The translations under genes and the position numbers were made by a program. Under the pieces are notes generated by a model that worked only from the letters and a program-made list of their open reading frames with translations, searched no databases and was not told where the DNA came from. This document shows, one piece after another, positions 880 to 2,015 of a DNA stretch of 64,000 bases; within the stretch, counting starts at the first letter, position 1; each line of letters begins with the position of its first letter. Location of the stretch: the NCBI RefSeq assembly GCF_058153355.1, contig NZ_CM177019.1; one strand, written 5' to 3'.

Positions 880-1803
880 TCAATAACCATTATTCGCGTT
901 TAACGGTTTTACCTCTTTTTTAAACGCTTCAATGGTAGATTTATATTTCTCGGAAATCTTTTCTTCGGTATAATTACCATTTGCGGCCAGATTTGCACTT
1001 ATAATCGCTTCCACTTGCTCGGTTATTTCCACTTGTTGGCAACCTGCATTAACCAGAAAATTATAAATAAGAGAGTAATCTTCACCCTGCAAAAAAATAT
1101 AAGAGCCAGTTCGAAATTCCTCATCCCCTCCATAGATTTTAAGAGCAAAGCCCAAAGATTCTATGACCATGGCATAATTTCTATTATTTATTTCCTCGCA
1201 AAAATACCATCCTTCACATTCTTTAATGCTACCTTCTGGCCCTTCAAGTTCAAATTTACCCCGTTTTAATTTGCTTACTACATTCTCCAAATAAGCAGAA
1301 TCGTAAGATAAGTTACCCGCCGCCTTCCGAAAATAACCGTTAATCCTTTCAGGTATGTCAGACTGTTTTTTCTGCAAAATATCATAGGCATACAATCTTC
1401 TATTTTGTGCTAGTGGAAATTCACGGTTTTTAAAGTCTATAAATGAGTTATACTCATTTATTGTTATAGGGATTTCTTCGTATTCAAATCCAGTGCCTCG
1501 CAATGTCATTGTATATTCGGCACCGTTATCTTTAAGGCGGAAGCTGATAAGAAAATTATCCATGGAGTGAACGGTTTCATCTTTTGATGAAAGCACCTGA
1601 TAACTATTTTTATCAATCTGTGTTGCTCTAAGAAAGAACTCCCTTAAAATTAACAGACTATCATAATTCGAAATCCAATCCCTTTTCTTAAATGCATGCT
1701 GAATATTATTAAAGAAATTATTTGAATGTATTTTTGTATGCGATGACTTTACAAATAACTCCACTGCACCAAAAAAATTATTGTGTCTGATCTTGGGTAA
1801 CAT
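880..1803 (-). CDS. ytfI: hypothetical protein, AT-rich, occupies the K-12 ytfI position
   Basis: 307 aa ORF, visibly low GC with Asn/Lys/Ile/Tyr/Phe-rich composition; AAGG-type RBS about 8 nt upstream of ATG; AT-rich upstream region 1804-1960. Confidence 0.6.
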   Translation of the reverse strand: MLPKIRHNNFFGAVELFVKSSHTKIHSNNFFNNIQHAFKKRDWISNYDSLLILREFFLRATQIDKNSYQVLSSKDETVHSMDNFLISFRLKDNGAEYTMTLRGTGFEYEEIPITINEYNSFIDFKNREFPLAQNRRLYAYDILQKKQSDIPERINGYFRKAAGNLSYDSAYLENVVSKLKRGKFELEGPEGSIKECEGWYFCEEINNRNYAMVIESLGFALKIYGGDEEFRTGSYIFLQGEDYSLIYNFLVNAGCQQVEITEQVEAIISANLAANGNYTEEKISEKYKSTIEAFKKEVKPLNANNGY

Positions 1804-2015
1804 ATGACAACCTTATTATATTTGGTTATTCTATGTCGCCATTAAATATCTTATTAAAGAAGTAAACTATCAAAAAAAGCTCATTATTAAAACATAACTT
1901 ATTAACGTTAGAATATTTACACTTTAAATACAATCCCTTTATATCTATAACTTTTTAGGTTGGAAACAAATCAGGATGGCAGAATCAGGAAATACACTGT
2001 TTCTGCCATATATAT

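What the first reader, a model, noticed from the sequence alone, without database searches (positions are those of the whole stretch)
880..2015. Strongly AT-rich uncharacterised gene (ytfI position) with its own AT-rich upstream region
The 307 aa ORF and the 210-bp region upstream of it are visibly much more AT-rich than the flanking cysQ and ytfJ, with Asn/Lys/Ile/Tyr/Phe-rich composition. This is the signature of horizontally acquired, probably H-NS-silenced DNA. The protein has no motif I recognise. It lies downstream of cysQ on the same strand but likely has its own promoter.
Basis: seen in the sequence. Interest (0 to 1): 0.4.

Follow-up and report, generated by a model that had tools for sequence, protein, structure and literature searches.

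The report
Divergent ytfI allele, AT-rich insertion
This is a rare, divergent version of the known but uncharacterised E. coli gene ytfI, an old AT-rich foreign insertion between cysQ and ytfJ that H-NS binds in K-12; it is ordinary in kind, and its protein has no detectable relatives outside Escherichia and Shigella.

Summary
ORF 880-1803 (minus strand, 307 aa) has GC 0.343 and the 212 bp upstream has GC 0.259. cysQ is 0.543, ytfJ is 0.512 and the window mean is 0.508. This is the most AT-rich stretch of its size in the 64 kb (z = -4.3).

The gene is ytfI, in a rare allele: 79% amino-acid and 86% nucleotide identity to K-12 YtfI, found in about 20 of 5,426 complete E. coli genomes.

The segment is a real insertion. 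In Salmonella, E. fergusonii, E. marmotae and about 70% of E. coli, ytfJ and cysQ overlap tail to tail by 11 bp with nothing between them. E. albertii carries a different AT-rich gene at the same junction.

A published H-NS binding map shows that the K-12 ytfI segment is a strain-specific, H-NS-bound insertion.

The insert looks like a self-contained transcription unit with a promoter-like site, a ribosome-binding site, the ORF and a terminator. The ORF is under purifying but relaxed selection (dN/dS 0.22-0.39; dN is 8-37 times that of neighbouring genes).

No homologue was found outside Escherichia/Shigella in 1.84 billion representative proteins. No family, defence-system or solved-structure match appeared, and the structure models were too poor to use. 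Function remains unknown.

The parts
225..779 (+). ytfJ, left flanking core gene. It is the 184-aa form that goes with an occupied site; empty-site genomes encode 185 aa.
   Evidence: Pfam PF09695 YtfJ_HI0045.
780..2015 (.). AT-rich inserted segment of about 1.24 kb (the ytfI islet). The right edge abuts the cysQ stop codon (2016-2018). The left edge is uncertain by about 15 bp (763-790), because the last ytfJ codons may come from either the ancestral sequence or the insert.
   Evidence: Junction comparison of filled and empty sites. GC is 0.326 over 763-2012. Absent from about 3,800 of 5,426 E. coli genomes and from the outgroups.
800..841 (-). Intrinsic terminator of ytfI. A 10-bp perfect stem, TTCCCCTATC / GATAGGGGAA (811-841), is followed on the minus strand by AAATTTATTTTTCC.
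   Evidence: Inverted repeat I18. RNA fold -16.8 kcal/mol, z = -3.6. The 3' arm and T-run are conserved in K-12 and L010.
880..1803 (-). ytfI coding sequence, divergent allele. 307 aa, 35.7 kDa, pI 5.7, no transmembrane segment.
1811..1814 (-). Shine-Dalgarno-like AAGG, 7 nt upstream of the ATG. L010 has GAGG at the equivalent place.
   Evidence: Read from the sequence and alignment A2.
1845..1873 (-). Candidate sigma-70 promoter of ytfI: TTGATA, 17 nt, GATATT. The -35 block TTTTTTGATAGT is invariant in all aligned lineages.
   Evidence: This is inferred only; the scan found 6 sites against 5.6 expected by chance.
1976..2009 (-). 34-nt hairpin (13-position stem with one A-A mismatch, 8-nt loop) starting 6 nt downstream of the cysQ stop codon. 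It is invariant, loop included, in the five sequences aligned from the three ytfI lineages (a loop variant exists in L019), is single-copy, and occurs only in ytfI-bearing genomes. It probably insulates or terminates transcription between cysQ and ytfI. It also coincides with a 12-codon mini-ORF, MAETVYFLILPS*.
   Evidence: I7; -17 kcal/mol, z = -3.8.
2016..2756 (-). cysQ, right flanking core gene. Its 3' coding end holds the ancestral terminator-like hairpin at 2032-2048.

Best explanation
The feature is ytfI, carried on a roughly 1.24-kb AT-rich foreign DNA segment.

Origin (shown): the segment was inserted into the ancestral 11-bp tail-to-tail overlap of the convergent core genes ytfJ and cysQ.

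Anatomy: the insert looks like a complete minus-strand transcription unit.
- A sigma-70-like promoter at 1873-1845 (inferred).
- An AAGG ribosome-binding site.
- A 307-codon ORF.
- A canonical hairpin plus T-run terminator at 841-800.
- Separation from cysQ read-through by cysQ's own in-coding hairpin and by an invariant 34-nt hairpin (function inferred).

Regulation (published for K-12, inferred for this allele): H-NS binds the AT-rich segment and the binding extends over the neighbouring genes. The gene is therefore most likely kept transcriptionally silent under ordinary growth and expressed only when H-NS repression is relieved.

Product (shown): a soluble, mildly acidic 35.7-kDa protein, predicted with low confidence to be mixed alpha/beta, restricted to Escherichia and Shigella. 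Its ORF has been kept open, with dN/dS of 0.22-0.39, across three lineages that differ by up to 0.84 synonymous substitutions per site. It is therefore a real gene under relaxed selection, not junk. The window holds the allele of a rare, divergent E. coli lineage.

Function (not established): the pattern fits a conditionally useful accessory protein of the AT-rich, fast-evolving orphan-gene class. That pattern is patchy presence, fast protein evolution, a most variable C-terminal third, an invariant basic core at residues 121-157, and occasional frameshift or IS knock-outs.
For: Identity and synteny with K-12 ytfI.

Composition: GC 0.33 against 0.51, z = -4.3.

Presence and absence:
- The segment is present in 1,622 of 5,426 E. 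coli genomes. The window-type allele is present at 95% identity or more in 20.
- The empty site, with the 11-bp ytfJ/cysQ overlap, occurs in E. coli B and EC17CM2, and as a 1,288-bp ytfJ-to-cysQ span in all 27 sampled rows at 51% coverage.
- The same empty site occurs in Salmonella, E. fergusonii and E. marmotae.
- ytfI sits at the same position in a separate Escherichia species-level genome, L010. There its dS (0.70-0.84) is similar to that of ytfJ and cysQ (0.53-0.78).

Selection: ytfI dN is 0.13-0.19 against 0.004-0.017 in neighbours, with dN/dS 0.22-0.39. Fisher tests on the substitution counts give p from 2e-6 to 3e-20.

No relatives:
- An exhaustive phmmer search of 1.84 billion representative proteins found only YtfI fragments.
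- Single-sequence and profile searches of 5.8 billion proteins found only E. coli/Shigella.
- No phage match; the only plasmid-collection matches are chromosome-sized or very large E. coli replicons, at 79% identity.

Signals: terminator, hairpin, ribosome-binding site and promoter-like blocks are conserved.

H-NS occupancy of the K-12 ytfI insertion, and its absence in ytfI-less strains: PMC4720273, S10 Fig.
Against: - H-NS binding was not measured for this allele, and silencing as opposed to binding was not examined. Matches to the H-NS high-affinity motif occur at the density expected from base composition, not above it.
- The promoter is a consensus match at chance frequency.
- No insertion mechanism is visible: no integrase, no transposase, no terminal repeats. 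A target-site duplication cannot be called, because the two candidate copies match at only 6 of 11 positions.
- The protein's biochemical role is unknown. Both AlphaFold models are poor (mean pLDDT 49 and 50) and fold searches gave only noise-level hits.
- A frameshift allele is common (729 database members), and IS1 disruptions show the gene is dispensable.
Confidence: 0.8

Rival explanations
1. ytfI is a functionless relic. On this view a foreign ORF is tolerated only because H-NS keeps it silent, and it drifts towards decay; its apparent conservation is incomplete erosion.
For: - It is missing from about 70% of E. coli genomes.
- dN is 8-37 times that of neighbouring genes, and dN/dS reaches 0.64 in the C-terminal third.
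- A -1 frameshift in a T7 run gives a 251-aa form with 729 database members.
- IS1 insertions and deletions occur, and many split ORF fragments appear on long contigs.
- No phenotype is known beyond one overexpression screen.
Against: - The ORF is intact in three lineages separated by dS 0.34-0.84. Neutral drift at that depth would introduce stops, since chance openness has a probability of about 5e-12.
- dN/dS is significantly below 1 in all three comparisons.
- The ribosome-binding site and terminator are retained.
- All but one of the 30 sampled hits carry a full-length annotated CDS.
Confidence: 0.2
2. YtfI is a conflict-related protein of a new family, such as a single-gene anti-phage defence, an immunity protein or an effector-like factor. 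On this view the ytfJ/cysQ junction is a recurrent landing pad for such cargo.
For: - Presence is patchy and the protein evolves fast.
- The same junction holds an unrelated AT-rich pentapeptide-repeat gene in E. albertii.
- PADLOC gives a marginal Cas6b hit on the invariant core, E = 0.011.
Against: - There is no significant PADLOC, PHROG, Pfam or PDB match.
- There is no partner gene, no toxin or nuclease motif and no secretion signal.
- There is no phage or genuine plasmid copy.
Confidence: 0.12
3. ytfI is an ancestral enterobacterial gene that was deleted in most lineages, so its AT-richness reflects local mutational bias rather than foreign origin.
For: Its synonymous divergence equals that of its flanking genes across a species-level split, so it has been resident for a long time.
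Against: - The empty site is not a deletion scar. It is a precise, conserved 11-bp overlap of two intact genes, shared by Salmonella, E. fergusonii, E. marmotae and E. coli. The 185-aa YtfJ that goes with it is seen across Citrobacter, Enterobacter, Raoultella, Lelliottia and Trabulsiella.
- No homologue exists in any other genus.
Confidence: 0.04
4. ytfI is simply the second gene of a cysQ-ytfI operon and serves sulfur or PAP metabolism.
For: It is on the same strand, 212 bp downstream of cysQ.
Against: - cysQ functions without it in about 70% of E. coli genomes and in every outgroup examined.
- Two stable hairpins lie between the genes.
- Conserved promoter-like blocks are present.
- The two genes differ completely in composition and evolutionary rate.
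Confidence: 0.04

Closest known systems
E. coli K-12 YtfI (b4215, WP_000937655.1), annotated 'protein YtfI', uncharacterised
   Same: Same locus, strand and neighbours. The two align over the whole length at 79% amino-acid and 86% nucleotide identity. The upstream hairpin is identical, and the promoter-like blocks and terminator are conserved.
   Different: - Length is 307 aa against 312 aa, with a different C-terminal tail.
- 21% of residues differ, which far exceeds the divergence of flanking proteins (dN 0.133 against 0.004-0.009).
- This allele is in only about 20 of 5,426 genomes, against about 1,600 for the K-12 type.
- The slippage-prone T7 run of K-12 is interrupted here as TTTCTTT.
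H-NS-bound xenogeneic insertions and AT-rich, fast-evolving orphan genes of E. coli (Higashi et al. 2016, PMC4720273; Daubin and Ochman 2004, cited from my own knowledge)
   Same: It is AT-rich, lineage-restricted, has elevated dN, is inserted between core genes, and is bound by H-NS in K-12.
   Different: It is old enough to have diverged alongside its flanking genes across a species-level split, yet its base composition has not drifted towards the host's (GC 0.34-0.36 in all three lineages). No phage or plasmid relative was found.
E. albertii pentapeptide-repeat gene (WP_001340718.1) at the ytfJ/cysQ junction
   Same: It occupies the same insertion point, abutting the cysQ stop codon. It is equally AT-rich (GC 0.33), is a single gene with its own terminator, and also leaves ytfJ at 184 aa.
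   Different: The protein is unrelated (best BLASTP E = 1.0), is 385 aa with Pfam pentapeptide repeats, and lies on the opposite strand.
Shigella VirA / EPEC EspG type III effector fold

Membership tests
YtfI (orthologue of E. coli K-12 b4215) | Full-length sequence similarity to K-12 YtfI | tested here: met
   BLASTP: 79% identity over 297 aa, E = 1e-179.
YtfI (orthologue of E. coli K-12 b4215) | Conserved position and orientation between cysQ and ytfJ | tested here: met
   The gene order ytfK-ytfJ-ytfI-cysQ-cpdB-ytfH is identical in K-12, in strain E04 and in the window.
H-NS-silenced xenogeneic DNA | AT content well above the genome average | tested here: met
   GC 0.327 against 0.508, z = -4.3.
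H-NS-silenced xenogeneic DNA | Derived insertion relative to related genomes | tested here: met
   The empty 11-bp-overlap site is found in Salmonella, E. fergusonii, E. marmotae and about 70% of E. coli genomes.
H-NS-silenced xenogeneic DNA | Physical occupancy by H-NS | not testable with these tools
   Published for the K-12 allele only (PMC4720273, S10 Fig). The density of H-NS motif matches here equals what base composition predicts.
H-NS-silenced xenogeneic DNA | Derepression in hns mutants | not tested
Known anti-phage defence systems (PADLOC-DB 2.0) | Significant match to a defence-protein HMM | tested here: not met
   The only hit is Cas6b at E = 0.011, 13.6 bits, over 41 residues.
Any curated protein family (Pfam-A, NCBIfam, PHROGs) or solved structure | Match above the family threshold | tested here: not met
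   The best Pfam hit is 13.2 bits against a cut-off of 30. NCBIfam gave none. The best PHROG hit has E = 0.023. PDB sequence search gave none at E up to 10.
Mobile element (IS, integrative islet or IS200/IS605-like hairpin-ended element) | Transposase or integrase gene, terminal inverted repeats or matching subterminal hairpins | tested here: not met
   ytfI is the only long ORF. The two hairpins (811-841 and 1976-2009) are unrelated in sequence. No terminal inverted repeats were found.
Mobile element (IS, integrative islet or IS200/IS605-like hairpin-ended element) | Target-site duplication | tested here: inconclusive
   The left copy CTCAAATAATG and the right copy TTTAATAAATAG match at 6 of 11 positions, in low-complexity AT-rich sequence.

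The most novel reading that the evidence does not exclude
YtfI would be the founder of a new, Escherichia-restricted protein family with a conflict-related or host-interaction role. It would be switched on only when H-NS silencing is lifted. The 11-bp ytfJ/cysQ overlap would be a recurrent landing pad where AT-rich single-gene cargo is inserted by a mechanism that leaves no integrase or repeats: ytfI in E. coli and one separate Escherichia species-level lineage, and a pentapeptide-repeat gene in E. albertii. The invariant 34-nt hairpin, with its embedded 12-codon mini-ORF, would be a functional control element of the islet.
Probability: 0.12. Interest if true: 0.5.

Novelty: already known. Interest (0 to 1): 0.2.

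Why it matters
The biology here is already on record. ytfI is a catalogued E. coli gene of unknown function, and its status as a strain-specific, H-NS-bound insertion was published in 2016.

This check adds five details:
- The ancestral state of the site is a conserved 11-bp overlap of ytfJ and cysQ.
- The insertion is old and exists as at least three deeply diverged alleles under relaxed purifying selection.
- A second, unrelated AT-rich gene uses the same junction in E. albertii.
- The protein has no relative among 1.84 billion representative proteins.
- One upstream hairpin is invariant across the aligned alleles.

These details make ytfI a tidy test case for two questions: how silenced orphan genes persist, and how single genes insert between convergent genes. 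They do not reveal a new mechanism.

Tried and rejected
1. Family and homology searches found nothing beyond YtfI itself. This covers Pfam, NCBIfam, PADLOC, PHROGs and PDB sequences, and single-sequence and profile searches of 5.8 billion and 1.84 billion proteins. The one outside hit, P0034, is a tandem-repeat artefact.

3. An internal duplication of the two beta-rich halves is not supported (hhalign E = 0.42).

4. A phage or plasmid origin is not supported. There were no phage hits, and the plasmid-collection hits are chromosome-sized or very large E. coli replicons.

5. A mobile-element reading is rejected. I considered IS200/IS605-like hairpin ends, terminal repeats and a target-site duplication. 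The hairpins are unrelated to each other and the duplication cannot be called.

6. H-NS motif enrichment beyond base composition was not found.

7. No Rfam family matches inside the insert.

8. Similarity between YtfI and the E. albertii occupant of the site: none.

9. The literature offers only incidental mentions of function:
- an overexpression hit for HOCl tolerance;
- a disputed sigma-32 ChIP peak;
- a proteome-chip listing;
- a mutation in strain JM83.

Full report
**What is there.** The window starts in the E. coli ytfK-ytfJ-cysQ-cpdB region. ytfJ lies at 225-779 (+), a 307-codon ORF at 880-1803 (-), cysQ at 2016-2756 (-) and cpdB from about 2937 (+). The ORF has GC 0.343 and the 212 bp upstream has 0.259, against 0.543 for cysQ, 0.512 for ytfJ and 0.508 for the window. 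The finding is essentially the lowest-GC stretch of its length in 64 kb (z = -4.3; the minimum window starts at 901). GC at third codon positions is 0.31 against 0.55-0.56 in neighbours. The protein is rich in E, N, I, L, K, F, S and Y. It is 35.7 kDa with pI 5.7 and has no hydrophobic segment.

**Identity.** The ORF is ytfI. It matches K-12 YtfI (312 aa) at 79% identity, E = 1e-179, in the same position and orientation. It is a rare allele. Only 20 of 5,426 complete E. coli genomes carry it at 95% nucleotide identity or more; the best is strain E04 at 99.4%. About 1,600 carry the K-12 type, which is about 86% identical. The window itself comes from a divergent E. coli lineage: its ula region is only 94-95% identical to most E. 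coli genomes.

**Insertion or deletion.**
- About 70% of E. coli genomes have nothing at this site. ytfJ (185 aa) and cysQ converge and overlap by 11 bp, giving a 1,288-bp span from ytfJ start to cysQ start. I checked this in E. coli B and in strain EC17CM2.
- The same overlapping arrangement occurs in Salmonella enterica, E. fergusonii and E. marmotae. The 185-aa YtfJ is the general form across Enterobacteriaceae. The empty site is therefore ancestral, and the roughly 1.24-kb AT-rich block (about 780-2015) is an insertion.
- Its right edge abuts the cysQ stop codon. Its left edge lies within the last ytfJ codons.
- E. albertii, and a genome deposited as E. coli whose cysQ is 99.7% identical to E. 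albertii's, carry a different occupant at exactly this junction. It is an equally AT-rich (GC 0.33) 385-aa pentapeptide-repeat gene with no similarity to YtfI. The junction has therefore been used at least twice.
- No integrase, transposase or terminal repeat is present, and a target duplication cannot be called.

**Age and selection.**
- A scan of one genome per GTDB species found ytfI in only one other species-level lineage, L010. That genome is deposited as E. coli SCPM-O-B-8794, and its flanking genes are 88-90% identical to E. coli. ytfI sits at the same position there. The only other hit was a 1.5-kb contig filed under a Collinsella MAG, 87% identical to the window across ytfJ-ytfI-cysQ, which I take to be E. 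coli contamination.
- Nei-Gojobori estimates for ytfI:

| Comparison | dS | dN | dN/dS |
|---|---|---|---|
| window vs K-12 | 0.34 | 0.133 | 0.39 |
| window vs L010 | 0.84 | 0.183 | 0.22 |
| K-12 vs L010 | 0.70 | 0.187 | 0.27 |

- ytfJ, cysQ and cpdB have dN 0.004-0.017 and dN/dS 0.014-0.06.
- In comparisons with L010, the dS of ytfI is similar to that of ytfJ and cysQ (0.53-0.78). The gene has therefore diverged together with its flanks and is old.
- dN/dS is significantly below 1 (Fisher p from 2e-6 to 3e-20), and chance openness of the frame has probability about 5e-12. It is a real protein-coding gene under relaxed purifying selection.
- The C-terminal third is the least constrained (dN/dS 0.64). 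Residues 121-157 are almost invariant.
- GC stays at 0.34-0.36 in all three lineages.

**Dispensability.**
- A -1 frameshift in a T7 run gives a 251-aa product with 729 database members.
- IS1 has inserted into ytfI in one sampled genome and replaced it in another. An IS5-like element abuts it in L007 and L008.

**Transcription-unit anatomy.**
- Downstream of the ORF, a perfect 10-bp hairpin (811-841) followed by a T-run forms a canonical terminator. It is conserved in K-12 and largely in L010.
- Upstream there is an AAGG sequence 7 nt before the ATG, and a TTGATA-17-GATATT pair (1873-1845) whose -35 block is invariant. The scan itself finds no more promoter-like sites than chance, so the promoter is inferred.
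- Two hairpins lie between cysQ and ytfI. One is the ancestral hairpin inside the cysQ 3' coding end (2032-2048). The other is a 34-nt hairpin (1976-2009).
- The 34-nt hairpin is identical, loop included, in the five sequences aligned from the three lineages, although the intergenic region as a whole is only 78-89% identical. One loop substitution was seen in the frameshift-allele locus L019. It is single-copy and occurs only in ytfI-bearing genomes.
- I read this hairpin as a terminator or insulator. A 12-codon mini-ORF that coincides with it is noted but not interpreted.

**H-NS.** Higashi et al. 2016 (PMC4720273) use this locus as their example (S10 Fig). In K-12, ytfI is a strain-specific inserted segment bound by H-NS, with binding over cpdB, cysQ, ytfJ and ytfK. 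Strains SE11 and SE15 lack ytfI and show no binding there. The paper also reports higher dN for H-NS-bound genes, which fits the numbers above. For the window's allele, H-NS binding is inferred from composition. Matches to the high-affinity motif occur at the density that composition predicts.

**Protein function.**
- Pfam, NCBIfam, PADLOC, PHROGs and PDB sequences gave nothing significant.
- phmmer against 1.84 billion representative proteins, and single-sequence and profile searches of 5.8 billion proteins, returned only YtfI and its fragments from E. coli and Shigella.
- tblastn found no phage copy. The only plasmid-collection matches are chromosome-sized or very large E. coli replicons.
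- The literature offers only an overexpression hit for HOCl tolerance and incidental listings.
- The function therefore stays unknown. My working view is a conditionally expressed accessory protein of the AT-rich orphan-gene class. A conflict-related role is a minority possibility.

**Verdict.** The finding is already known in kind and in this specific locus. It is of low interest, apart from being a clean model of a long-lived silenced orphan gene and of a reused insertion point between convergent genes.

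Noticed in passing
window 2823-2945 (-): Strong Rfam match to ES239 sRNA (149 bits against a gathering score of 62, E = 5e-30, full length) in the cysQ-cpdB intergenic region, upstream of cysQ on its strand.
   Followed up: no
window ~14227-22505: An accessory metabolic cluster of about 8 kb: TetR regulator, short-chain dehydrogenase, xylose-isomerase-like TIM barrel, enoyl-CoA hydratase, CoA-transferase, FAD oxidoreductase and MFS transporter. It is covered at 80% or more in 1,659 of 5,426 E. coli genomes. An MG1655-derived K-12 strain matches only the first 430 nt, annotated as a TetR/AcrR regulator next to ytfB.
   Followed up: partly
window ~2115-2216 (cysQ gene nt 540-641): A stretch of about 100 bp in cysQ is 97% identical to E. 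fergusonii but only 84% to K-12. This looks like a short interspecies recombination tract. It explains the dS of 0.73 in cysQ codons 180-246, with no amino-acid change.
   Followed up: partly
L016 3292-4449 and L006 2733-3890 (E. albertii-type genomes): A different AT-rich (GC 0.33) single gene sits at exactly the ytfJ/cysQ junction. It encodes a 385-aa pentapeptide-repeat protein, has its own terminator hairpin and lies on the opposite strand to ytfI.
   Followed up: partly
window 1971-2009 (-): A 12-codon mini-ORF (MAETVYFLILPS*) coincides with the invariant 34-nt hairpin, starting 6 nt after the cysQ stop codon. L010 keeps the same length, with the last codon changed from Ser to Tyr. No ribosome-binding site is evident.
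   Followed up: no
L019 ~1346-2256; protein P0009: A common ytfI pseudogene allele. A -1 slip in the T7 run at codons 30-31 leaves an annotated 251-aa product, with 729 member sequences in the protein database. The window allele has this run interrupted as TTTCTTT.
   Followed up: yes
L003 3246-3943; hit H37; L007 4967-5421; L008 4146-5126: IS elements cluster at this AT-rich locus. IS1 replaces ytfI and the 3' end of ytfJ in strain ETEC1738. IS1A sits inside ytfI in strain T28R. An IS5-like transposase follows ytfI in the divergent-allele contigs.
   Followed up: no
window 20751-21500, 22501-23000, 30751-31250, 41251-42000: Other local GC dips (0.35-0.39 in 500-bp windows). All are milder than the ytfI block and were not examined.
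   Followed up: no
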